Shown here one piece after another: positions 32,834 through 43,370 of a stretch of 64,000 nucleotides of DNA. The notes under the pieces were generated by a model. That model ran no database searches. It had not been told where the DNA came from and saw only the letters and a list, made by a program, of their open reading frames with translations. The stretch lies in contig JAZPZJ010000093.1 in NCBI GenBank assembly GCA_045544635.1, positions 2,632 to 66,631 of the forward strand. The letters run 5' to 3'. A program made the position numbers and the translations under genes. This DNA comes from Oscillospiraceae bacterium. Lineage in GTDB: Bacteria > Bacillota > Clostridia > Oscillospirales > Ruminococcaceae. The first letter of the stretch is position 1. Every line of letters begins with the position of its first letter.

Positions 32834-34570
32834 ATGAAACGGAATATATGGCTGCTGATCGCCGCAGGCGTGATGGTTGCGGCAGCAGTAATCTTTATGA
32901 TCGTGATGGGATTGCGGTCGAAGCCGGCAAAGCCTCCGACGACCTCACCCACGGATGCACAGATGTCATCCACGGTACAGCCGGAAGCGGAGACACTTCC
33001 GGCAATGACGGAGCAGACCGGTCCGAGCTATCCGATGGTGGAGCTTGAGGTGCCGCCGATCGAAACACAGGAAACTAAGATCATCATGGAAGCCGAGGAG
33101 GCACAGTATACCGGACTTCTGATGGTCGAATCCCTTCTGCCGGGTTTCAGCGGCGAGGGATATCTTGCCGGCTTTGGTGTAAACCCCGGTGATGTTGTTG
33201 TGGCAAAATGCGAAATCCCTGCCGCACAGCATTATGACGTGACCATCAGCGTGTATGCGGATACCGTCGTGACCAATGCACTCCTCGTGAATGATACGGA
33301 GATCGGGGAATTTACCATCGAGGAGGGCGGACATTTTGTGCGTGTTACCTTCTCGGGTGTGTATCTGCCGCAGGGCGAAGCGACCTTCTCCATCCGTGAG
33401 ATTGACGGCATGTTCTCCCTTGATTATTTCGAAGTTTCGGATTATTCCGAGATGTATCAGATCGAATACCGTGAGTCCTACAAGCTCAGTGACAAGGATG
33501 CTTCGGAACAGGCGCAGAAGCTCATGGAGTATATGAGTATGCATTACGGCGCCAAGGTGCTGACAGGACAGTATGCGGCAAGTGACGCCAACACGGAGGC
33601 GGATCTGCTTTTCCGTCTTACAGGTAAGTATCCTGCGATCCGTTTCGGCGATCTGGAGGGCTGCACGGTGAATACGACCGCCAGAAAGAGCGACGCCATC
33701 GCCGCTTCGCAGGCATGGTGGGAGCGTGGCGGCATTGTCGGACTGATGTGGCACTGGGACGCACCGACGGGTGTTGCTTCGGTGTATGCACAGGAAACAG
33801 ATTTCTCGCTGGAAAGCGCCATGACCGATCAGGATGTGGCATCCCTTTCCCAGACGGAGATCGACAAGCTTTTCGAGGACGGCGTGATCACAGAGGAATG
33901 CCACGCCATCCTGCGTGATATTGACAGCGTGGCAGCGGAGCTGAAAATTCTGGCAGAGCAGGATATTCCCGTGCTCTGGCGTCCGCTGCATGAAGCAAGC
34001 GGCGACTGGTTCTGGTGGGGGGCGGATGGTCCGGATGCTTACCGGTGGCTCTGGGAGCTGCTGTATGAGCGTCTGACGCAGTACCACGAGCTGCACAATC
34101 TGATCTGGATCTGGAATGGACAGAGCGAACATTATCTGATGGATGCGGATCTGTATGACATTGCGTCTTTGGATATTTACCTGCCCGAAGGAACGGATTA
34201 CGGCAGCCGTTACGAACAGTTTGTGCTGCTGTCGAGAATGACGGGCGGTGAAAAGATGCTGGCGCTGAGTGAGACAAGCAGTGTGCCCTCGATGAATGCG
34301 ATGTTCCGTGACAACTGTATCTGGAGTTTTTTCGGGCTGTGGTACGGGGATTATCTGATCGGTGAGGACGGTGCGTATTCCGAACAGTATACCGGATCGG
34401 AAGCGATGGTGGCGATATATAATTCCGAGGCGGCACTGACGCTTTCGGATACGGCGGCGTATTTCCTGGACGAACAGGAACCGGAGGCACTTACTAAGCC
34501 CACGGTGCCGCAGGAACCGGAAACAGAAGCAGTGGCCGAGGAAACCACGGAGACTGCGGGAGAAGAATAA
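32834..34570 (+). CDS. membrane-anchored GH26 beta-mannanase-type enzyme with N-terminal CBM-like module
   Basis: N-terminal TM. CBM6/35-like segment (EAEEAQYTG...GEGYLAGF...FSLDYFEV). GH26 signature VLWRPLHEASGDWFWWG. Confidence 0.78.
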   Translation: MKRNIWLLIAAGVMVAAAVIFMIVMGLRSKPAKPPTTSPTDAQMSSTVQPEAETLPAMTEQTGPSYPMVELEVPPIETQETKIIMEAEEAQYTGLLMVESLLPGFSGEGYLAGFGVNPGDVVVAKCEIPAAQHYDVTISVYADTVVTNALLVNDTEIGEFTIEEGGHFVRVTFSGVYLPQGEATFSIREIDGMFSLDYFEVSDYSEMYQIEYRESYKLSDKDASEQAQKLMEYMSMHYGAKVLTGQYAASDANTEADLLFRLTGKYPAIRFGDLEGCTVNTTARKSDAIAASQAWWERGGIVGLMWHWDAPTGVASVYAQETDFSLESAMTDQDVASLSQTEIDKLFEDGVITEECHAILRDIDSVAAELKILAEQDIPVLWRPLHEASGDWFWWGADGPDAYRWLWELLYERLTQYHELHNLIWIWNGQSEHYLMDADLYDIASLDIYLPEGTDYGSRYEQFVLLSRMTGGEKMLALSETSSVPSMNAMFRDNCIWSFFGLWYGDYLIGEDGAYSEQYTGSEAMVAIYNSEAALTLSDTAAYFLDEQEPEALTKPTVPQEPETEAVAEETTETAGEE

Positions 34571-34576
34571 ACCAAA

Positions 34577-34604
34577 CCCCTCTGTTTCGTCAGAAACAGA
34601 GGGG
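34577..34604. repeat. 28-bp hairpin CCCCTCTGTTTCGTCAGAAACAGAGGGG, copy 1 (direct repeat flanking the MITE-like element)
   Basis: Exact 28-mer recurs at 34805-34832. This copy extends to a 17-bp stem (34572-34609). Confidence 0.9.
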
Positions 34605-34609
34605 TTTGG

Positions 34610-34804
34610 CTGTCAAAAAGTCCCGTTCAGCCAGCGCGCCTTACGGCGCACGGCTGGACTAGTTTTTTATTCTTAGTTGCTCCTTCGGCGCATGTAGGGG
34701 GCTTCTCCCCCTACAACCCCCAGTGTATAGCCAAAAAGCGCTCCGCAGGAGGGCGGGGTAGGGTGCGGCAAATTTAAGTGAAATTATACTTTTCGACAAG
34801 CTGA
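34610..34804 (+). repeat. MITE-like ~195-bp structured repeat, copy A
   Basis: Hand alignment to the reverse complement of 42848-43070. About 128 nt at one arm show ~9 substitutions and 1 indel; ~40 nt at the other arm show 1 substitution and a 2-nt indel; the centre is divergent. Contains hairpins (GTAGGGGG-CTTCT-CCCCCTAC) and a hairpin plus T6 terminator-like module. Confidence 0.8.
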
Positions 34805-34832
34805 CCCCTCTGTTTCGTCAGAAACAGAGGGG
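34805..34832. repeat. 28-bp hairpin, copy 2
   Basis: Identical to 34577-34604. It abuts the ...CGACAAGCTGA end of the element with no spacer. Confidence 0.9.
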
Positions 34833-34839
34833 GTATTTG

Positions 34840-35601
34840 TTATTTTACCGGTGCCATCAGGATCTTTCCCTTGCCACGGAAGACATTGACCAGACCCTCG
34901 CCGGAAGCAGCGGATCCAAGCAGTGTCTTGGTGGTGCGCTCCACTGTGAATTTCAGGGATTCGCTCCATGCGATCGCCATATTGCCGTCGATCTTTACGA
35001 CATCATTTGCATCCGTCAGTTCCATCACGATCAGCTCATCCCTCGGTACGGGGCTTTCCAGTACCGCAATGCCCGTGCCCGTCAGGCAGGCATTGAACAG
35101 ACCCTCGCCGCCCATTGCTGCAGAGGACAGTGTGCTGCGCATCACGACTTTGGTATTGACGGTGTCCTCGCATGCGTAGAACAGGGAATCCTCAATCACC
35201 ATGCCGCCCCATTTTGACACATCCTCGAACAGAACATACTTGTAGGTCGGCTCCAGTACGATCGTGCCGTAGCCATGGTATCTGGGCTTCACAGCCGCTT
35301 CGCCCGTGACCTTGCTGCCGATGAGCTTCTTCGCAAAGTCGCCGGCACCCTTTACATTGGTTGCAGCGTCCACATTGCCGGCAGTCCACTGCATAGCACC
35401 TGCCTGTACGATGATGCCGTTGCCGTTCAGATTCGCAACCACCTGGCGCTTATGCACGCCCATTTTTGATGCGAAATATTCGCTTGCGGCAGTCTGGTGG
35501 TTAACGGAGATATCCTTGCTGAATTCCAGCAGACTGAAGCAGCCGCTCTGCTCCACGATCTTACGGCAGGCAGTCTCCTGCATGATGTTGGTTGTTACCA
35601 T
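34840..35601 (-). CDS. AIM24-family (TIGR00266/DUF124-like) protein
   Basis: 253 aa: GIIVQAGAMQWTAGNV...GYGTIVLEPTY...GEGLFNACLTGTGIAVLES...GEGLVNVFRGKGKILMAP. This is the characteristic AIM24 beta-rich pattern. Confidence 0.8.
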   Translation of the reverse strand: MVTTNIMQETACRKIVEQSGCFSLLEFSKDISVNHQTAASEYFASKMGVHKRQVVANLNGNGIIVQAGAMQWTAGNVDAATNVKGAGDFAKKLIGSKVTGEAAVKPRYHGYGTIVLEPTYKYVLFEDVSKWGGMVIEDSLFYACEDTVNTKVVMRSTLSSAAMGGEGLFNACLTGTGIAVLESPVPRDELIVMELTDANDVVKIDGNMAIAWSESLKFTVERTTKTLLGSAASGEGLVNVFRGKGKILMAPVK

Positions 35602-35646
35602 AGAAATGACCTTCCTTTCTCAGAGCTGATCGCTCAATTGATGCTG

Positions 35647-36690
35647 TTATTCGGCGGTTTTCTGTGCCTTTGCCTTTTCCTGACAATCGGCAAAGAGCTT
35701 CTTTGCTTCTTCGTCATTGGTCAGATCGGCGAATACACGCAGATAGAAGCATGCATTTTCCCATTCTTCCTTCTCCATTGCCTGTTCGCCCAGTGCTGCT
35801 GCAACACCCAGTACGTTCTGGCTGGGACCATTCGGGATCTCCAGTGAAGCAAATGCCTGCAGGACTTCTTCTCGCTTGGGGGGATGGATCTTCTTGCCCA
35901 TCATCTGTGCAACATGTGTCAGTTCCATACGGACTGTCTGTGTGTGGGAATAGATCAGGCTCTCGAAATAGAAGCAGATCGCCTTTTCGAATTCCTTCAC
36001 ATCCACGCAGTAGTAGCCCAGATTTGCATAGCAGCGTGCAATTGCATGGGGTGATGCGCAGACCGGCAGCGTCTCACGGATGACGGTCAGCAGCTTTTCG
36101 TGTTCATGCATCAGCTTGTAGATCTCTGCCAGTTCGAAACGGGGATCGGGGCAGACCGGATTGAAGCGGATCGCTTCTTCCAGCACCGGGATCGCCTCGG
36201 ACGGACGACGCATTTCCACCAGATTGAAGGCGTGCGCCATCAGGAATCTGACGAAATCGAACGGTGCCTTTTCCAGACGCTTGGTCGGGTGATACATCAC
36301 ATAGTAGAGATTGGATTCGAGCAGATTACGGAAACTGAAGATTCTCGCATCCTCTGTTTCCATAAATTCTGTGCGGATCTTGTCATAGATCTGTGTGGTC
36401 AGCACGATCGCCTTGTCGTACTGCCTCTGCTGCATCAGTGCAGCGGCTTCGCCGTACACGGCATCCAGACGGCGTTCACCGATGTAAAGCTTCTGCTTCA
36501 TGAAGTCCAGATGCTGCTGGGGCATCAGGCTCATAGCGAGATCGGTCAGTTCCTTTGCGATGGCAGCGCCATCCTCCTGCTGTGCGTAACGGCTGACTTC
36601 CGCTTCGATCATGACCATATCCTTGGTCAGGTCGCCGGTGAGCCGGCTGCGGACGGACGCCACGATTGCAATTCTTTCGTTTTCAGTCAT
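35647..36690 (-). CDS. TPR-like helical repeat protein, function unknown
   Basis: Start MTENERIA at 36690 after AAAGGAG. Helical-repeat composition (AIPVLEEAIRFNP..., ARCYANLGYYCVDVKEFEKAICFYFESL). Confidence 0.55.
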   Translation of the reverse strand: MTENERIAIVASVRSRLTGDLTKDMVMIEAEVSRYAQQEDGAAIAKELTDLAMSLMPQQHLDFMKQKLYIGERRLDAVYGEAAALMQQRQYDKAIVLTTQIYDKIRTEFMETEDARIFSFRNLLESNLYYVMYHPTKRLEKAPFDFVRFLMAHAFNLVEMRRPSEAIPVLEEAIRFNPVCPDPRFELAEIYKLMHEHEKLLTVIRETLPVCASPHAIARCYANLGYYCVDVKEFEKAICFYFESLIYSHTQTVRMELTHVAQMMGKKIHPPKREEVLQAFASLEIPNGPSQNVLGVAAALGEQAMEKEEWENACFYLRVFADLTNDEEAKKLFADCQEKAKAQKTAE

Positions 36691-36724
36691 GGTATACTCC
36701 TTTGGGATTTGATAATGCTGCAAA

Positions 36725-36752
36725 GAGTCCCACGCCGTATGGCGTGGGACTC
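36725..36752 (-). terminator. 12-bp perfect hairpin between the repeat-protein gene and the TPR gene
   Basis: GAGTCCCACGCC-GTAT-GGCGTGGGACTC. Only a short T-run follows on the minus strand, so it may act as a partial terminator or processing site. Confidence 0.4.
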
Positions 36753-36781
36753 CCTACGGTATGTTGTTCATCGGGAATGGA

Positions 36782-39412
36782 TCAGAAGCCTCTCTTTGCA
36801 AGATCCTTCTTGAATTTCGCATTGATCTTTTCTTCACGCTTCTGACGCTTGAGTTCTTCCTTGGTCAGAGGACGAGCAGGCTCAGCAGGCTTTTCTTCGG
36901 CAGCCTGCTTCGGAGCGGCTTCCTTCTTTGCTTTCGGCTTGTACTCACGGTACTGCAGCTCAACCTTCGGCTCTTCCTTCTTCTTGTACTTGGAAGTATC
37001 CTCGCCCATCATGGAGAGAATATCTTCTACGCTGTCAACGATTGCAACGTTGCCATCCTGCTGGTCGAAGATATTACCCTGCGGCGCAGCGGACTTGGAA
37101 ACAGCGGAACGGATGTAATCAGGCATATCGGGGTTGGTTTCGATCTTGGAAACACGAACGCCTTGGGACTTTCTCTTCTTGCCGTAGGTCATCGGCTCGA
37201 CAGTCGGATGCTCGGTATCCTCGGGCAGAGCGTAGGTTCCCATGGTAGGTACCTCTGCGGTCATCGGAGAAATGAGCGGTGCTTTCTTCTTCGGTGCAGG
37301 CGGTGCTTCCTGTACGGGGGCAGCTTCCTGAACCGGAGCCGGTGCGGGCTGCGGAGCAACAGGTGCAGGCTGCGGTGCTACGGGTGCAGGCTGGGGTGCT
37401 AAGGGTGCAGGCGGCGGTGCTACGGGTGCAGGCTGGGGCATTACCGGTGCCTGCTGCATGGGCGGAACCTGCTGCGCATAGGGCTGCGGAGCAACCTGCG
37501 CATATACGGGCTGACCATTTGCGTCATAACCCATGAACTGCGGCATTACCTGCTGCATGAAGCCATAAACGGGCTGACCGTTTGCATCGTATCCCATAAA
37601 CTGCGGAACCTGCTGTACGTTCTGCGGCATGCCCTGCATCGGAGCTTGTGCATACTGCGGCTGCATGGTGGGCATGGGTGCAGCAGGAATCGGCTGGGGT
37701 GCAGGTGTTTCCGGAACGGGCGCAGTGAACGCCGGAACCTCGGGAACTGTAACCTCTTCGATTGCCTCGGGCAGTTCCTCAACAGCCGGAGCAGTGAACG
37801 CCGGAACCTCGGGAACCGTAACCTCTTCGATCGCCTCGGGCAGTTCCTCAACAGCCGGAGCAGTGTATGCCGGAACTTCGGGAATCAGTTCCTCCAGATC
37901 GGGAACGGTGATGTTTTCGGGTTCGATTACAGGGATCTCCGGTTCTGCAGTCAGATCCGGAACTGTAATATTTTCGGGAGCGATCACAGGGATTTCCGGT
38001 TCTGCAGCCGCTGCAAGTTCTTCCAGATCCGGAACAGTGATCTGCTCGGGCGTAATTACGGGGATTTCAGGCTCGGAAACCGGAATGACTTCTACGTCCT
38101 CGATCTCTTCAGCAGGTGCTGCTGCCATATTCATCACAGCTGCAAACGGATCATCATCCTCTACAACCTCGGCAACAACTGCAGATGCAGGAGTTTCCTC
38201 CACGGAAGAATCGCCGAACATGCGGTTTGCGATCTCATCGAATTCCATGAATGCGTGGCTCTCGGCATTGCCTGCCAGCATTTCTTCTTCAAATTCAGCA
38301 GTGGTCTCAACGATATCAAATTCGGGGCTTTTTGTCTCCGGTGCTGCTGCGGGTTCTGCTACAGCGTCCGGAATGCTGAACTGTGCCATGATATCGTCCG
38401 TTTCCTCGGGGACGGGAGCTGCTTCCGGTGCAGTCTGCGGCATTGCAAACTGTGCCATGATATCGTCCATATCCTCCAGTACAGGTGCTGCAGGTGTATC
38501 CTCAGCAACGGGTGCAGGTGCTTCTTCAGCAGCCTCTTCCTCAGCTGCAGGAGCGGAGATACCAAACTGTGCCATGATGTCATCGAGTGTCTCAACAGCA
38601 GGTGCTTCCTCGACGGGTGCCGGAGCAGGTGCAGCCTGCGGCATTGCGAACTGTGCCATGATATCATCCGGATCATCGAGTACCGGTGCAGACACAGGTT
38701 CCTGCGGCATTTCTGCCTTTGCGGCTTCCTGCTGCTGTGCAAGGATGTTCGGGTTCTTGCCCTCATTTGCAGCAAAGGCAGCGGCAGTCGGATCCACTGC
38801 GGTCTTGGGCAGTGCGAACTGCGCCAGATCTCCGTCGAGTGCAAAGCCGCCGAAGGATGTCTGCGTCGGGGGCGGTGCAGCTGCGGGAGCAGCGGGCTTC
38901 TTCACCGGGGGTACATACTGTTCAAATTCAGGAACGGGTGCATCGTCCACACCATGGATCTCAGCCAGGGGCGGCGTTGCAGCAGCCTCTTCGGCTTCTC
39001 TTGCAGCCTTTGCCTCTTCTTCGGCTCTGGCAGCCTCCTCAGCGGCACGGCGTTCAGCGATCGCAGCGTTGCGTTTGTCACGCAATTCCTGCTTCTGACG
39101 CTCCTGCTGTACCTCGGCGAGGGATACCATATTCGGATCTTCACCCATAGTCTTCGTACGCTTTTTCTCTTCTTTCAGCATACGATTCATTTCTTTACGG
39201 TCTGCTTTCAGAATTCTCTTGGTAAACACGGTCTGGCACTTTTCGCAAGTTACCTCTGTCATCAGGCCGAATGCATCATCGACGGTTCCGCCGACGCTGT
39301 ATTTTGCCGCACTGTCAGGTCGTTGAAGATTGATGCCGCAGCCGGTTCTTTTATTGTTATCCGTTGCATGCACCGCGTTGCCCTTGGATTCGCGGATCAG
39401 AAAAAACTGCAT
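36782..39412 (-). CDS. 876-aa repeat-rich, Ala/Pro/Glu/Val-rich predicted disordered protein, function unknown
   Basis: ATG 39412 after GGAGG (MQFFLIRESKG...). No TM or signal peptide seen. N-terminal ~70 aa with Cys at GCG and CEKC. Charged coiled segment, at least five families of in-frame tandem repeats, and a Lys-rich C-terminus. Confidence 0.7.
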   Translation of the reverse strand: MQFFLIRESKGNAVHATDNNKRTGCGINLQRPDSAAKYSVGGTVDDAFGLMTEVTCEKCQTVFTKRILKADRKEMNRMLKEEKKRTKTMGEDPNMVSLAEVQQERQKQELRDKRNAAIAERRAAEEAARAEEEAKAAREAEEAAATPPLAEIHGVDDAPVPEFEQYVPPVKKPAAPAAAPPPTQTSFGGFALDGDLAQFALPKTAVDPTAAAFAANEGKNPNILAQQQEAAKAEMPQEPVSAPVLDDPDDIMAQFAMPQAAPAPAPVEEAPAVETLDDIMAQFGISAPAAEEEAAEEAPAPVAEDTPAAPVLEDMDDIMAQFAMPQTAPEAAPVPEETDDIMAQFSIPDAVAEPAAAPETKSPEFDIVETTAEFEEEMLAGNAESHAFMEFDEIANRMFGDSSVEETPASAVVAEVVEDDDPFAAVMNMAAAPAEEIEDVEVIPVSEPEIPVITPEQITVPDLEELAAAAEPEIPVIAPENITVPDLTAEPEIPVIEPENITVPDLEELIPEVPAYTAPAVEELPEAIEEVTVPEVPAFTAPAVEELPEAIEEVTVPEVPAFTAPVPETPAPQPIPAAPMPTMQPQYAQAPMQGMPQNVQQVPQFMGYDANGQPVYGFMQQVMPQFMGYDANGQPVYAQVAPQPYAQQVPPMQQAPVMPQPAPVAPPPAPLAPQPAPVAPQPAPVAPQPAPAPVQEAAPVQEAPPAPKKKAPLISPMTAEVPTMGTYALPEDTEHPTVEPMTYGKKRKSQGVRVSKIETNPDMPDYIRSAVSKSAAPQGNIFDQQDGNVAIVDSVEDILSMMGEDTSKYKKKEEPKVELQYREYKPKAKKEAAPKQAAEEKPAEPARPLTKEELKRQKREEKINAKFKKDLAKRGF
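37320..38700 (-). repeat. in-frame coding tandem repeats (several families)
   Basis: A 69-bp unit occurs 2.3 times at 37722-37882 (PEVPAFTAPAVEELPEAIEEVTV). EPEIPVIxPExITVPDL occurs 4 times (about 37885-38090). DDIMAQFxxP occurs 4 times plus 1 degenerate copy (about 38385-38700). APQPAPVA 24-bp units lie at about 37330-37440. PQFMGYDANGQPVY occurs twice (about 37500-37610). Confidence 0.85.
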
Positions 39413-39682
39413 AGCAATCCTCCTATTCAAATATACTCTATTCTTATCATAACACATTTCTAACATAAAATCAACTCTTTTTTTAAAAAAAATTTGATAT
39501 TTTACCGAAAGTATTACAAAAGGTTGAAATCGGGTAAAATTTTATGCGTTCCATTACGCTCTGAACAATTTGCAATTTCCGACAAAATGTGCTACAATAA
39601 AACAGAATGGATGCAGCGGCGGGAATATACCGGATGTGATCCGTAAGCCTGCCCATTATAATATGTATCGGAGGGATCTGAC

Positions 39683-40276
39683 ATGAGTAAAGTGATCTGG
39701 AAGGGAAGTGCACTGCTTGGACCCGTACCGCCGGCACTTGTGACCTGCGGTACGATGGAACAGCCGAACGTGCTGACCATCGCATGGACGGGGATCGTCT
39801 GCACACACCCGGCAATGACCTATATTTCTGTGCGCCCGTCAAGGCATTCCTATGGAATGATCCGGGAAAGCGGTGAGTTCGTGATCAATCTGCCAACCTC
39901 GGCAATGGCGAAAATCACGGATTACTGCGGCATGAAGAGCGGTGCCAAGGAGAATAAGATCCAGAAATGCAAGCTTTCGCTCTGCGAGGGTTCCGTGGTT
40001 GCGGCACCCGTGCTGGCGGATTGTCCTGTGAGTCTGGAATGCCGTGTCACAGAGGAGAAACCGCTTGGTTCCCACAGCATGTTTCTGGCGGAAATCGTTG
40101 CGGTGCAGGTGGAAGAACGCTTCCTCGACAGCAAGGGAAAGCTCAATCTCCAGCAGGCAGGCCTGCTTGCCTATGCGCATGGCGAGTACTTTGCGCTGGG
40201 TAGAAAATGCGGAGATTTTGGGTTTGCAGTGAAAAAGAAGAAAAAAATCAATAAAATCCAGACAAAAAAGCAATAA
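39683..40276 (+). CDS. flavin reductase-like (FMN-binding split-barrel) protein
   Basis: 197 aa: PALVTCGT...NVLTIAWTGIVCTHPAMTYISVRPSRHSYGMIRESGEFVINLP. Lys-rich tail. Confidence 0.8.
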   Translation: MSKVIWKGSALLGPVPPALVTCGTMEQPNVLTIAWTGIVCTHPAMTYISVRPSRHSYGMIRESGEFVINLPTSAMAKITDYCGMKSGAKENKIQKCKLSLCEGSVVAAPVLADCPVSLECRVTEEKPLGSHSMFLAEIVAVQVEERFLDSKGKLNLQQAGLLAYAHGEYFALGRKCGDFGFAVKKKKKINKIQTKKQ

Positions 40277-40375
40277 ATTCTATTAAAAATGATTGACAAT
40301 CCTGTAAAAATGTTCTATAATAAAACTACAAGTAATTCGTGAATTTTCAATGAACGATGAGGAGGAAGGATTTCT

Positions 40376-42811
40376 ATGAAAATGACCATGACCGAGCGTA
40401 TCCGCCGTGCGGCAAACTGCGGCATTGCGGTGCTGATGGCAACTGCGTTCACAGCGCAGATGTCGGCGGTTCTTATACCTGCCAAAATCGCAAAGCCGGT
40501 ACAGCTGGAAACATCCGCAGCGGAAAGCTATGACTACGCAAAGCTTCTGCAGTATTCCATGTATTTCTACGATGCGAATATGTGCGGTACGGGGGTTGAT
40601 GAGAACACCCGCTATGTCTGGAGAGGGGACTGCCATACCTATGATGCGCAGGTGCCCATGCAGCCGATTGATGAAAAAAACGTCGGTACAAATCTCTCAC
40701 AGGCATTTCTGGATCAGCATAAGGATGTACTGGACCCGGATGGTGATGGCTATATCGACGTCGCAGGCGGTATGCATGATGCCGGTGACCATGTGAAATT
40801 CGGTATGCCGGAGAACTACTCCGCTGCAGCGCTTGGCTGGGGCTACTATGAGTTCCGTGATTCCTATGTAAAAACCGGACAGGACGAACATATTGAAACG
40901 ATCCTGCGGTATTTCAATGACTATCTGATGAAGTGTACCTTCCGTGACGACAGCGGTACTGTGATCGCACACTGCTATCAGGTCGGTGACGGCGATATCG
41001 ACCACCAGTACTGGAATTCCCCCGAAGTGGATGAGATGGCAAGACCGGCATTCTTCCTGACTGCCGACAAGCCTCAGACGGACTATGTTGTATCTGCGGC
41101 AGGTTCTCTGGCGATCAACTATATGAACTTCAAGGATACCGATCCGGAGTATGCGGAAAAGTCCCTTGACTATGCATTGGCACTCTGGGATTTTGCCAAT
41201 GACAATCCCAAGGAACTGAGTGACAATGCGGATGGTCCGAAGCAGTACTACAAGTCCAACAAGTGGGAGGACGACTACTGCTGGACTGCAGCATGGCTGT
41301 TCCTCTGCACAGAAGATAAGTCCTATCTGGAACAGGCGGCGCCTTATGTGGACTATTATGCTCCCTCCGGCTGGTGCTACTGTTGGAACGATATGTGGAG
41401 CGGTGCGAATTCCCTGTGGGGTATCATCAACCAGACCTATCCGGAGCTTGGACTTGTGGATATGGTAAGAGCTGCACAGGGCAAGAACCAGTATGTTTTT
41501 GATAACTTCTGGGATGAAGTAGAAAAGTGCTTTCCCACATGGCAGGCACTGGAATCCCCCGGCGGCTACGCATTCCTGAGTACGTGGGGCAGTGCAAGAT
41601 ATAACACCGCAATGCAGCTGATCGCCTATGTCTATGATAAGTACAACAACAACGGAAAGCCCGGTGAATACAGTGACTGGGCAAAGAGTCAGATGGATTA
41701 TCTCCTCGGTGATAATCCCCTTGACCGCTGCTATGTGGTCGGCTACAGCGATAATTCTGCAAAATTCCCGCATCATCGTGCGGCATCGGGTCTGACTAAG
41801 TGCGAAGATCCGGACGAACATCGCTATGTCCTCTACGGCGCACTGGTCGGCGGTCCGGACGGGTCCGACCAGCACAGCGACACCACCGCTGACTGGGTTT
41901 ACAACGAAGTTACCATCGACTACAATGCGGCATTCGTTGGCGCAGCAGCCGGCATCTATGCATTCTACGGCACAGAGGACATGGAAGTGACGCCTGATTT
42001 CCCGCCGGAGCCGGAATATGGCGGCGATGAGAACGGCGGCACAAGCTATTGGGTGGAGGCATGCGGCATCGATGATCCGAAGGACGCTGGTGCAGGCGTG
42101 ACCAAGGTCTCCCTGATGGTCAAGACCACTGCGACCACAAAGCTTGACAACATCTCCATCCGTTACTATTTTGACGGTTCCGAGATGTCCAATCCCATGG
42201 GACTGACCTGCGGCGAACTGTATGACCAGGCGGCAACTGAGGCAGCACCGGCTGACGGTGTGGTCAGCGGCCCGTACAAGTACGACAAGATGGACAATGT
42301 TTATTACTTTGAAGTGACCTATGACGGTTACAATTTCGCAAACTCCGCAAAGAAGTACCAGTTCTGGATGGGTACCTATTATGGCGACAAATGGACGCCG
42401 GACAATGACTGGAGCTATCAGGGGCTGACGATGTTTGACAACGACTCTGCCTTCTCCGGCACTGGCAATGAAGTGCGCACCGATTACATCTGTGTTTACA
42501 CAGATGACACCCTGATCGGCGGTATTGAGCCGGATGGCTCCCAGCCTGCAACGGATCCGACCACGGAACCCACCACGGAACCCACTACGGAACCGTCGGA
42601 TACTGAGAACATCTATGGTGATGCGAACTGCGATGGTGAGGTAGATGTTCTGGACATTATCGTCCTGAACAAGAATCTGCTTGGCGGCGGTTCCCTTTCC
42701 GAGCAGGGAAAAATCAATGCGGACGTTGACGGCAGCGGCGAGGCAGACCCCAATGACTCCCTGAACATTATGAAGTTTATCGTCAAGCTGATTGATACAC
42801 TGCCTGTATAA
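40376..42811 (+). CDS. cellulosomal GH9 endoglucanase with CBM3-like module and C-terminal dockerin
   Basis: YDYAKLLQYSMYFYDANMCG, GGMHDAGDHVKFGMP and FPHHRAASG (GH9). A CBM3c-like segment, a TEPTTEPTTEP linker, and dockerin GDANCDGEVDVLDIIVL...ADVDGSGEADPNDSLNIMKF. Confidence 0.9.
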   Translation: MKMTMTERIRRAANCGIAVLMATAFTAQMSAVLIPAKIAKPVQLETSAAESYDYAKLLQYSMYFYDANMCGTGVDENTRYVWRGDCHTYDAQVPMQPIDEKNVGTNLSQAFLDQHKDVLDPDGDGYIDVAGGMHDAGDHVKFGMPENYSAAALGWGYYEFRDSYVKTGQDEHIETILRYFNDYLMKCTFRDDSGTVIAHCYQVGDGDIDHQYWNSPEVDEMARPAFFLTADKPQTDYVVSAAGSLAINYMNFKDTDPEYAEKSLDYALALWDFANDNPKELSDNADGPKQYYKSNKWEDDYCWTAAWLFLCTEDKSYLEQAAPYVDYYAPSGWCYCWNDMWSGANSLWGIINQTYPELGLVDMVRAAQGKNQYVFDNFWDEVEKCFPTWQALESPGGYAFLSTWGSARYNTAMQLIAYVYDKYNNNGKPGEYSDWAKSQMDYLLGDNPLDRCYVVGYSDNSAKFPHHRAASGLTKCEDPDEHRYVLYGALVGGPDGSDQHSDTTADWVYNEVTIDYNAAFVGAAAGIYAFYGTEDMEVTPDFPPEPEYGGDENGGTSYWVEACGIDDPKDAGAGVTKVSLMVKTTATTKLDNISIRYYFDGSEMSNPMGLTCGELYDQAATEAAPADGVVSGPYKYDKMDNVYYFEVTYDGYNFANSAKKYQFWMGTYYGDKWTPDNDWSYQGLTMFDNDSAFSGTGNEVRTDYICVYTDDTLIGGIEPDGSQPATDPTTEPTTEPTTEPSDTENIYGDANCDGEVDVLDIIVLNKNLLGGGSLSEQGKINADVDGSGEADPNDSLNIMKFIVKLIDTLPV

Positions 42812-42820
42812 TTCAAATCA

Positions 42821-42846
42821 ACTCCCATTCCGGATGGAATGGGAGT
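42821..42846 (+). terminator. 11-bp perfect hairpin after GH9
   Basis: ACTCCCATTCC-GGAT-GGAATGGGAGT. The MITE-like copy B starts 2 nt later. Confidence 0.55.
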
Positions 42847-42847
42847 T

Positions 42848-43070
42848 TCAGCTTGTCGAAAAAAGTATACTTTCACTTAAATTTGCCCCACAGCTAACAC
42901 GTCCTACGGGTGCCCATGATCCCCTCCCCAAAGGGGAGGACTTTTCGGTTATATACTGGGGGCTGTAGGGGGCGAAGCCCCCTACATGCGCCGAAGGCGC
43001 AACTAAGAATAAAAAACTAGTCCAGCCGTGCGCCGTAAAGCGCACTGGCTGCACGGGACTTTTTTGACAG
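42848..43070 (-). repeat. MITE-like structured repeat, copy B (inverted relative to copy A)
   Basis: See copy A. It has the same terminal sequences (TCAGCTTGTCGAAAA... and ...GGGACTTTTTTGACAG) and a longer, divergent centre with hairpin CCTCCCC-TTTG-GGGAGG. Confidence 0.8.
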
Positions 43071-43370
43071 ACTGCAGGGATACACAAAACAGCATCGGCG
43101 CTGTGCACCGATGCTGTTGCTTTTTATAAAATAAACCGCCTTGCCGTCATATAGCGAAATAAAACCAAGCTTTCGCCAGGTGGGTATCCGCCTGTATGCT
43201 GCACGCTCCCTTCATCCGGGATCCGCAGGAGGTATGCCAAGCACCCTTTGCTGCAGGTCGGGAGGTCTGCACTTCACATCCAGAGCTAAATTCCCTTAAT
43301 TTAAGTGTTGGATTATAAAAACTATAATTACCCGAACAAGGCAGAATATTTCACAGTGTGGTGGGTGGGA

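What the first reader, a model, noticed from the sequence alone, without database searches (positions are those of the whole stretch)
34572..34832. MITE-like element inserted at a terminator hairpin, with an exact 28-bp duplication of the hairpin on both sides
Between the convergent GH26 and AIM24 genes, the 28-mer CCCCTCTGTTTCGTCAGAAACAGAGGGG occurs twice in direct orientation (34577-34604 and 34805-34832). The two copies immediately bracket a ~195-bp highly structured non-coding element (34610-34804). Removing the element plus one hairpin copy would reconstruct a classic bidirectional terminator with T-rich flanks on both strands. A second, inverted copy of the element (42848-43070) starts 2 nt after another perfect terminator hairpin (42821-42846), with the same TCAGCTTGTCG end proximal to the hairpin. 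So in both cases the same end sits directly 3' of a stem-loop. This pattern is reminiscent of hairpin- or terminator-targeting elements such as IS200/IS605-derived PATE/MITEs and class C group II introns. No transposase lies in the window, and a 28-bp duplication is far longer than normal target-site duplications.
Basis: seen in the sequence. Interest (0 to 1): 0.6.

Follow-up and report, generated by a model that had tools for sequence, protein, structure and literature searches.

The report
IS1182-type MITE duplicating terminator hairpin
The 200-bp insert between the two convergent genes is a small, gene-less transposon derived from IS1182-family insertion sequences, which land on terminator hairpins and copy the whole hairpin to both sides; it is real and tidy, but it is an ordinary member of a kind of mobile element already on record.

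Summary
The 28-mer hairpin occurs exactly twice (34577-34604 and 34805-34832) and brackets a 200-bp non-coding element. A second, inverted copy lies at 42849-43074.

The element is a MITE with 17-18-bp terminal inverted repeats, consensus CAGYYTGTCRAAAAAGT. It has about 9 full-length or near-full-length copies plus about 10 fragments in this 2.35-Mb Ruminococcus MAG, and is found in 3 of 25 genomes of the genus searched with the element.

At most complete copies the flanking direct repeat is a whole terminator stem-loop of 19-43 bp, different at each locus. I counted 40 such cases across Oscillospirales genomes.

Full-length insertion sequences with the same ends, a similar hairpin-plus-T-run just inside the left repeat, and the same hairpin duplication encode IS1182-family DDE transposases (NF033551, 358-390 bits). 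Two are in the same genus. None is in this assembly.

The IS200/IS605 and group II intron analogy does not.

This scan has reached the same conclusion many times on other genomes. The element is a new member of a known kind, of low interest.

The parts
34577..34604 (.). Left copy of the duplicated target: a terminator stem-loop with a 12-bp stem and GTCA loop. With its flanks CCAAA/TTTGG the stem extends to 17 bp. It keeps the T-rich tail that serves the minus-strand AIM24 gene.
34605..34804 (+). MITE copy 1 (family A), 200 bp, with no ORF. The interior is a string of GC-rich hairpins.
34606..34621 (+). Left terminal inverted repeat, TTGGCTGTC-AAAAAGT. The outermost 3-4 nt are degenerate relative to the consensus CAGYCTGTCRAAAAAGT. 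It is followed by the subterminal hairpin plus T-run TCAGCCAGCGCGCC..GGCGCACGGCTGGACTAGTTTTTT (34627-34667; the stem's first base is C in most other copies, GTCCAGCC).
34788..34804 (-). Right terminal inverted repeat. It reads TCAGCTTGTCGAAAAGT on the minus strand.
34805..34832 (.). Right copy of the duplicated terminator stem-loop. It keeps the T-rich tail GTATTTGTTATTTT that serves the plus-strand GH26 gene.
42820..42847 (.). GH9/dockerin gene terminator hairpin AACTCCCATTCC-GGAT-GGAATGGGAGTT. It abuts MITE copy 2 and is not duplicated.
42849..43074 (-). MITE copy 2 (family A, a longer variant with an extra internal module), 226 bp, inverted relative to copy 1. Its TIRs are CAGCTTGTCGAAAAAAGT and CAGTCTGTCAAAAAAGT. 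It has no target duplication.
43088..43118 (.). A second, unrelated hairpin 13 nt beyond copy 2. It is the terminator of the 6S RNA gene (43129-43350, minus strand).

Best explanation
The element is a non-autonomous miniature transposon (MITE) derived from a lineage of IS1182-family insertion sequences common in Oscillospirales. An IS1182-family DDE transposase supplied in trans binds the 17-18-bp terminal inverted repeats (CAGYYTGTCRAAAAAGT). It chooses targets by DNA structure (a hairpin or cruciform, in practice intrinsic terminators), not by sequence. The two 3'-OH ends of the element are joined to the two strands at the 5' feet of the extruded stem-loops. Those points are adjacent in a cruciform but a whole hairpin apart in linear DNA. 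Gap repair therefore copies the entire stem-loop to both sides, so the hairpin sets the length of the target duplication, 28 bp here. Shown: the repeats, the copy number, the hairpin-length duplications at many independent loci, and identity of the ends with transposase-bearing ISs that make the same duplication. Inferred: the cruciform-foot chemistry, mobilisation in trans, and the consequence that each convergent gene now meets a tail-less hairpin first and its T-tailed terminator only beyond the MITE, so the element is probably transcribed on both strands as 3'-UTR.
For: (1) The 28-mer hairpin is exactly duplicated around a 200-bp ORF-less element. (2) It is a dispersed family, with about 9 full-length or near-full-length copies plus about 10 fragments in G000, many at contig ends. 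It is present in 3 of 25 genus genomes searched with the element and in 0 of 16 other families of the order. G022 has 117 TIR hits and G005 has 40. (3) Other G000 copies are flanked by their own duplicated hairpins: C51 25 bp, C32 24 bp, and C73 and C5 decayed. The same holds for G005 copies at 19-24 bp. In a tabulation, 40 elements from many genomes have 20-43-bp flanking direct repeats that all fold as hairpins, while about 150 spurious TIR-like pairs have none. (4) Several MITE families with unrelated interiors share the TIR and the behaviour. (5) Three full-length ISs have the same TIRs and hairpin duplications. L123:2389-3900 is 1512 bp with a duplication of about 38 bp. G056:C171, in the same genus, is 1473 bp with about 30 bp. 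G014:C6, also in the same genus, is 1532 bp with 31 bp. (6) Their ORFs are IS1182-family transposases: NF033551 at 389.6 and 357.8 bits against a cut-off of 270, and Pfam DUF772 plus DDE_Tnp_1_6. (7) IS and MITE left ends align through the TIR, and both then carry a hairpin followed by a T-run. (8) The orthologous GH26/AIM24 junction in G058 and G017 holds one hairpin and no element. (9) Literature supports the habit. IS1182-family ISCbo5 sits in hairpins at gene ends (PMC3098183). IS1272/TnSha1 target terminator hairpins without sequence specificity (PMC4923244). The model in which attack at the 5' feet of a cruciform duplicates the whole stem-loop is published (PMC5678879, Fig. 13 pathway b).
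Against: No IS1182-family transposase is in G000, G005 or G022, so no mobilising enzyme is shown for these copies. These assemblies are draft MAGs 77-99% complete, and repeats break the assemblies. The outermost nucleotides of the left TIR in G000 copies deviate from CAG (GAGG, TTGG, AAGG), and copies are only 80-92% alike, so this subfamily may be inactive. Copy 2, C56 and L017 lack a duplication. The strand-transfer geometry has never been shown biochemically for this family, as far as the papers read here say.
Confidence: 0.9

Rival explanations
1. The element would be a hairpin-guided single-strand transposon derivative (an IS200/IS605 PATE), or a terminator-seeking class C group II intron remnant, that lands just 3' of a stem-loop.
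For: One end of each window copy sits directly next to a terminator hairpin. The element is rich in hairpins.
Against: The element has 17-18-bp terminal inverted repeats and flanking target duplications, which neither of those classes makes. Hairpins abut both ends. Elements with the same ends that carry a gene encode IS1182 DDE transposases, not TnpA/TnpB or a reverse transcriptase. Rfam gives no group II intron or other ribozyme hit.
Confidence: 0.01
2. This would be a local duplication or recombination artefact: the hairpin was duplicated in place, and the 200 bp between the copies is not a mobile insertion.
For: A perfect 28-bp repeat could arise by slippage. Copy 2 has no duplication.
Against: The same 200-bp sequence recurs at about 20 loci, each with a different duplicated hairpin. 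The family is patchy among congeners. Other species have a single hairpin at this junction.
Confidence: 0.01
3. This would be a MITE of a different hairpin-duplicating family, such as IS30-type elements like IS1630 of Mycoplasma fermentans, and not of IS1182.
For: [quoted passage not shown] No transposase of any kind was tied to these copies inside G000.
Against: Every transposase-bearing element found with these TIRs is IS1182 family. That covers three complete ISs and four partial ones. The hairpin-plus-T-run architecture just inside the left TIR also matches.
Confidence: 0.03
4. The repeat would be primarily a structured RNA gene or regulatory 3'-UTR module (a relative of the Rfam Clostridiales-2 motif) spread by recombination, with mobility secondary.
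For: There are sub-threshold Rfam hits to RF02937 on the core of both window copies: 35.2 and 30.8 bits against a gathering score of 58.6, E 2e-5 and 4e-4. The element probably lies inside the 3'-UTRs of both convergent genes.
Against: The hits are below threshold and cover 51 nt with a 31-nt deletion relative to the model. Interiors are mosaic, and MITE families sharing the TIRs have unrelated interiors. Only the TIRs and the first subterminal hairpin are conserved. No expression data could be obtained.
Confidence: 0.05

Closest known systems
Hairpin-targeting IS1182-family insertion sequences, e.g. ISCbo5/ISBma2 of Clostridium botulinum group III and C. novyi-NT (Skarin et al. 2011, PMC3098183)
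   Same: The transposase of the full-length relatives is an IS1182-family DDE enzyme. Insertion sites are inverted repeats forming hairpins at gene ends, which are terminators. The element ends up surrounded by the hairpin. Insertions are intergenic and do not disrupt genes.
   Different: The window element has no transposase (it is a MITE). It belongs to an Oscillospirales lineage with its own TIR, CAGYYTGTCRAAAAAGT. No cognate IS is present in its assembly.
IS1272 and TnSha1 of staphylococci (IS1182 family; Furi et al. 2016, PMC4923244; Wan et al. 2017, PMC5678879)
   Same: They recognise the target by structure (stem-loops and terminators) with no sequence consensus, and repeatedly insert into the same hairpin. 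Wan et al.'s model explicitly includes an outcome (pathway b) in which the whole stem-loop is duplicated.
   Different: IS1272 deletes or replaces the stem-loop and leaves no duplication. The elements here duplicate it, although copy 2 has none.
IS1630 of Mycoplasma fermentans (IS30-type; Calcutt, Lavrrar & Wise 1999, J Bacteriol 181:7597, cited in PMC2853133)
   Same: [quoted passage not shown]
   Different: It belongs to a different transposase family (IS30), has different ends and is autonomous.
Rfam RF02937 Clostridiales-2 RNA motif
   Same: A 51-nt core of the MITE (34678-34728, minus strand) resembles the motif's first hairpin and flanks.
   Different: The score is 35 bits against a gathering threshold of 58.6, and 31 nt of the model are missing. 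It is not a member by Rfam's criterion.

Membership tests
MITE (miniature inverted-repeat transposable element) | Short (under about 500 bp) and without a transposase ORF | tested here: met
   The copies are 200 bp and 226 bp. No ORF of 80 aa or more lies in 34605-34804, and only spurious overlapping frames cross copy 2.
MITE (miniature inverted-repeat transposable element) | Terminal inverted repeats | tested here: met
   The repeats are CAGYYTGTCRAAAAAGT and its complement. They are clean in G005 and G022 copies and in copy 2. The outer 3-4 nt are degenerate in copy 1.
MITE (miniature inverted-repeat transposable element) | Flanking target-site duplication that differs between loci | tested here: met
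   The duplication is 28 bp here. It is 19-43 bp at 40 elements, with a different sequence at each locus. Copy 2 lacks one.
MITE (miniature inverted-repeat transposable element) | Multiple dispersed copies, with presence or absence varying among relatives | tested here: met
   There are about 20 loci in G000. The family is in 3 of 25 genus genomes searched with the element. Other species have a single hairpin at the orthologous junction. An identical empty site in a sister strain was not obtained.
MITE (miniature inverted-repeat transposable element) | An autonomous element with matching ends exists | tested here: met
   Matching full-length elements are L123:2389-3900, G056:C171 (L169:125-1597) and G014:C6 (L171:1422-2953). 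None is in the same genome.
IS1182 family (derivative of) | The cognate transposase matches the IS1182 family model (NCBIfam NF033551; Pfam DUF772 plus DDE_Tnp_1_6) | tested here: met
   Scores are 389.6 bits (L123) and 357.8 bits (G056) against a cut-off of 270. The G014 copy is split in two, at 201 and 184 bits. This applies to the full-length relatives, because the MITE itself encodes nothing.
IS1182 family (derivative of) | Targets palindromes or hairpins, with long, variable direct repeats (ISfinder lists 0-60 bp for the family; this figure is from my memory and was not checked) | tested here: met
   Hairpin duplications of 19-43 bp occur at MITEs and full-length ISs. Hairpin targeting is documented in PMC3098183, PMC4923244 and PMC5678879.
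IS1182 family (derivative of) | Mobilised by that transposase | not testable with these tools
   This needs a transposition assay. No transposase is present in G000.
IS200/IS605 PATE | No terminal inverted repeats, no target duplication, and asymmetric subterminal hairpins inserted 3' of a fixed tetra- or pentanucleotide | tested here: not met
   TIRs and duplications are present, and no fixed target motif is seen.
Class C group II intron | Ribozyme domains (including domain V) and, in full-length copies, an intron-encoded reverse transcriptase; inserted after terminators without duplication | tested here: not met
   There is no group II intron hit in Rfam at E up to 10 over the element. The element is 200 bp long and a duplication is present.
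Rfam RF02937 Clostridiales-2 RNA | Score at or above the gathering threshold of 58.6 bits | tested here: not met
   Scores are 35.2 and 30.8 bits.

The most novel reading that the evidence does not exclude
The duplication length is set purely by DNA geometry. A DDE transposase attacks the two feet of an extruded cruciform, so any hairpin from 19 to 43 bp is copied whole. Each insertion therefore makes two targets out of one. That would let elements pile up at one terminator, as in hairpin-MITE A-hairpin-MITE B-hairpin at G005:C39, and could explain the bursts (over 100 TIRs in G022) with little harm to genes. The very abundant, near-identical G022 copies would be a natural system for showing this chemistry, which has only been drawn as a model for IS1272.
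Probability: 0.4. Interest if true: 0.4.

Novelty: new member of a known kind. Interest (0 to 1): 0.2.

Why it matters
For annotation, these 150-400-bp repeats and their duplicated terminators explain many odd 'double hairpins' and many contig breaks in Ruminococcus and Oscillospiraceae MAGs. Nearly every contig end of G022 lies in this element.

For gene expression, the insertion separates each convergent gene from the T-tail of its terminator, which probably extends both 3'-UTRs across the element on opposite strands.

For transposon biology, it adds a large, clean data set of 40 structure-defined target duplications. These come from several MITE families and three full-length ISs, for a family whose target choice is described in only a few papers. 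It does not reveal a new principle.

Tried and rejected
I tried the following, and none of it changed the main reading.

- **Rfam.** I scanned the element and the nested inserts. Only sub-threshold Clostridiales-2 hits and noise came back, with no ribozyme or intron.
- **Autonomous copy in the three carrier genomes.** I looked for a pair of TIRs 0.5-5 kb apart in G000 and in G005 and G022. An apparent 5.6-kb pair in G005:C19 turned out to be two separate family-B MITEs. A 793-bp pair in G005:C6 turned out to be a solo TIR next to a truncated serine-recombinase fragment plus a family-B MITE.
- **Transposase searches.** A search with the NF033551 model and a tblastn with the L123 transposase found none in G000, G005 or G022.
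- **Exact empty site.** Congeners are only 70-83% identical, so only the single-hairpin architecture could be compared, not the sequence.
- **Recombination partner for copy 2.** Its two flanking hairpins occur only once each in the assembly, so the missing duplication stays unexplained. It could be IS1272-like replacement, a later deletion, or loss of the partner.
- **Casposon or CRISPR-repeat-like (Cas1) integration.** I considered this as a source of long duplications and dropped it once the DDE transposase was found.

Full report
**1.

The 28-mer CCCCTCTGTTTCGTCAGAAACAGAGGGG occurs exactly twice in the window, at 34577-34604 and 34805-34832, in direct orientation. None of 100 shuffles produced even one match. 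The 200 bp between the copies (34605-34804) has no ORF.

Joining the flanks gives AAACCAAA-hairpin-GTATTTGTTATTTT, a bidirectional terminator between the convergent GH26 (32834-34570, +) and AIM24-like (34840-35601, -) genes. The consensus terminator scan flags the right hairpin copy for the + strand and the left copy for the - strand.

The second copy is real, inverted, and about 80% identical with one extra internal module. I place it at 42849-43074. It starts 1 nt after the GH9/dockerin gene's terminator hairpin (42820-42847) and has no flanking duplication. Beyond its other end lies the terminator of a 6S RNA gene (43129-43350, minus strand; Rfam 60.2 bits against a gathering score of 46.4).

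**2. It is a dispersed repeat family with inverted ends**

The window lies in a 2.35-Mb, 109-contig, 51% G+C genome. blastn of the two copies against it finds about 9 full-length or near-full-length copies: C93 twice, C51, C5, C32, C56, C73, plus C15 and C92 with nested inserts. It also finds about 10 fragments, several cut by contig ends.

The ends are inverted repeats. They are cleanest in two congeners: TCAGTCTGTCGAAAAAGT ... ACTTTTTTGACAAGCTGA.

In G000 the outer 3-4 nt of the left repeat have drifted: GAGG in four copies (C5, C32, C51, C73), TTGG in two (copy 1 and C102), and AAGG in two (C92 and C98). Copies are 80-92% identical, so this subfamily is not young.

Among 24 other genomes of the genus searched with the element, only G005 and G022 carry the family, and none of 16 other families of the order does. 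G005 is 'Ruminococcus sp. SIG550' by contig identity with L137. G022 has 117 TIR matches, most of them 35-55 nt from contig ends, and G005 has 40. The element is therefore what breaks those assemblies.

**3. The whole-hairpin duplication is the rule, not an accident of this locus**

- In G000, C51 has aaggacgatgcagcgcatcgtcctt on both sides and C32 has aacaRctccctttcgggagctgtt. C73 and C5 have decayed versions.
- In G005, six copies are bracketed by their own 19-24-bp stem-loops, a different one at each locus.
- A second MITE family (family B, interior GGGGTTAGCACCCC...GGTTCAAAGGACG) shares the TIRs and the behaviour. Examples are G005:C19, G005:C6 and G000:C92:11480-11635.
They are overwhelmingly Oscillospiraceae, Ruminococcus, Oscillibacter, Pseudoflavonifractor, Faecousia and Agathobaculum.
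- In a tabulation over all fetched loci, 40 elements have 20-43-bp flanking direct repeats, with a few nt of boundary ambiguity. Each repeat folds as a hairpin (-7 to -35 kcal/mol). About 150 spurious TIR-like pairs have none.

**4. The autonomous relatives are IS1182-family insertion sequences**

Three complete ISs carry the same ends and the same kind of duplication.

| Element | Length | Flanking duplication | Evidence |
|---|---|---|---|
| L123:2389-3900 (Oscillospiraceae bacterium S32_Bin2) | 1512 bp | about 38-bp hairpin, aaagatcgtctttgcattttcttgcaaagacgaccttt | |
| G056:C171 (same genus as the window) | 1473 bp | about 30-bp hairpin | |
| G014:C6 (same genus as the window) | 1532 bp | 31-bp hairpin | |

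- The L123 ORF matches NCBIfam NF033551 'IS1182 family transposase' at 389.6 bits (cut-off 270). It also matches Pfam DUF772, DDE_Tnp_1 and DDE_Tnp_1_6.
- The G056 ORF scores 357.8 bits on NF033551. The G014 gene is split into two ORFs, at 201 and 184 bits.
- Partial transposase genes follow the same TIR in four further genomes.
- IS and MITE left ends align through the 18-bp repeat. Both then carry a hairpin followed by a T-run: GTCCAGCC..GCTGGAC TTTTT in the IS, and a longer hairpin that begins and ends with GTCCAGCC and GGCTGGAC in the MITE.
- Ten of 50 genomes of the genus hold homologues of this transposase, mostly fragments. G000, G005 and G022 hold none.

**5. Mechanism**

Hairpin targeting is established for this family in the papers I read.

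- IS1272/TnSha1 insert into terminator hairpins with no sequence consensus and repeatedly into the same hairpins, but delete part of them. The paper cites Siguier et al. [quoted passage not shown]
- Wan et al. draw the model. [quoted passage not shown] Joining at the 3' feet replaces the stem-loop (PMC5678879, Fig. 13).

The elements here are the duplication outcome of that model. Copy 2 may represent the other outcome or a later deletion. That the strand transfer really happens at cruciform feet is inference, and I found no biochemistry for it in these papers.

An IS30-type element, IS1630, independently shows the same phenotype with 19-26-bp duplications of inverted repeats (Calcutt 1999, via PMC2853133).

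**6. Consequences at this locus (inferred)**

The duplicated unit is the stem-loop without its T-tails. GH26 transcripts therefore meet a hairpin followed by only TTTGG and reach the T-tailed copy after crossing the MITE. AIM24 transcripts do the mirror image. The element is thus probably transcribed on both strands as 3'-UTR.

**7. Empty-site evidence is only architectural**

Congeners are 70-83% identical in the flanking genes. In the two species where GH26 and AIM24 are adjacent and convergent (G058, G017), the spacer holds one bidirectional terminator hairpin and no element. An identical empty site in a sister strain was not obtainable.

**8. Comparison and novelty**

The sub-threshold similarity of the MITE core to Rfam Clostridiales-2 (35 bits against 58.6) does not make it a member.

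A look-up of this scan's earlier notes, made after I had reached the IS1182 assignment, shows that follow-up agents came to the same conclusion on many other genomes.

This is therefore a new member (an Oscillospirales/Ruminococcus MITE lineage) of a known kind. It is real and neat, useful for annotation, and of low surprise.

Noticed in passing
window 43129-43350 (-): This is a 6S/SsrS RNA gene (Rfam RF00013, 60.2 bits against a gathering score of 46.4). Its terminator hairpin (43088-43118) lies 13 nt from MITE copy 2, so the MITE sits between the GH9 and 6S terminators.
   Followed up: partly
L027:1333-1878 (G005:C39): Three copies of one 24-bp hairpin (CAGCCCGCAGCAATGYGGGCTGTT) alternate with two different MITEs (family A, then family B). 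Both MITEs carry the same aberrant outermost bases (ATT... ...CCGA instead of CAG... ...CTGA). This is either repeated insertion into the regenerated hairpin, or unequal crossing-over plus conversion. L024 shows a similar second, truncated element after the right hairpin copy.
   Followed up: partly
G000:C15:4195-4664, G000:C92:28435-28640; L017, L024, L027, L030: Some family-A copies carry extra 60-72-nt inserts exactly inside the loops of their internal hairpins. One is TGCCGACTCACATCC...CAGCTTAGGGCA in the GCGCC-TTCG-GGCGC loop. Another is GACTCCCCACGGGGTGGGGAG...GAGGGGACGG in another loop. There are no obvious duplications. They are low copy (4 in G005, 1-3 in G000) and Rfam finds nothing. 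They may be a second class of hairpin-seeking mini-element.
   Followed up: partly
L043, L049, L053, L058, L060, L064, L072, L076, L077, L082, L085, L096, L106, L118, L149: In many Oscillospirales genomes the two TIRs occur back to back as 31-43-bp palindromes (CAGCTTGTCGAAAAAGT..ACTTTTTCGACAAGCTG) with almost nothing between them. These are minimal elements or footprints. In five loci (L053, L076, L085, L096, L149) they are followed by a conserved stretch, TCAGACTTCGAGAAACACGCGCAGACGAGGAAAAAGCC, of unknown nature.
   Followed up: no
G022 (whole assembly): The genome has 117 TIR matches, most lying 35-55 nt from contig ends. This MITE family is the main cause of fragmentation of that 99%-complete MAG, and it implies well over 60 near-identical copies, consistent with a recent burst.
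   Followed up: partly
window 34678-34728 (-) and 42951-43001 (+): There are sub-threshold matches to Rfam RF02937 (Clostridiales-2 RNA; E 2e-5 and 4e-4). That Rfam motif may itself overlap a module of MITEs like this one.
   Followed up: no
L032:606-1080 (G005:C6): A solo TIR with a shortened subterminal hairpin is followed by what reads as the C-terminal part of a large serine recombinase (zinc-ribbon-like YRRVIYQCSSKFK ... LTVFHDGSRVFLFKDGTEIKI). That part is interrupted by one of the ~66-nt inserts.
   Followed up: no
window 34605-43074: The two window copies are inverted and bracket about 8.2 kb (five genes), as another first-stage note says. Copy 1 still has its intact matching duplication on both sides. 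An inversion between the two copies since copy 1 inserted is therefore unlikely.
   Followed up: partly
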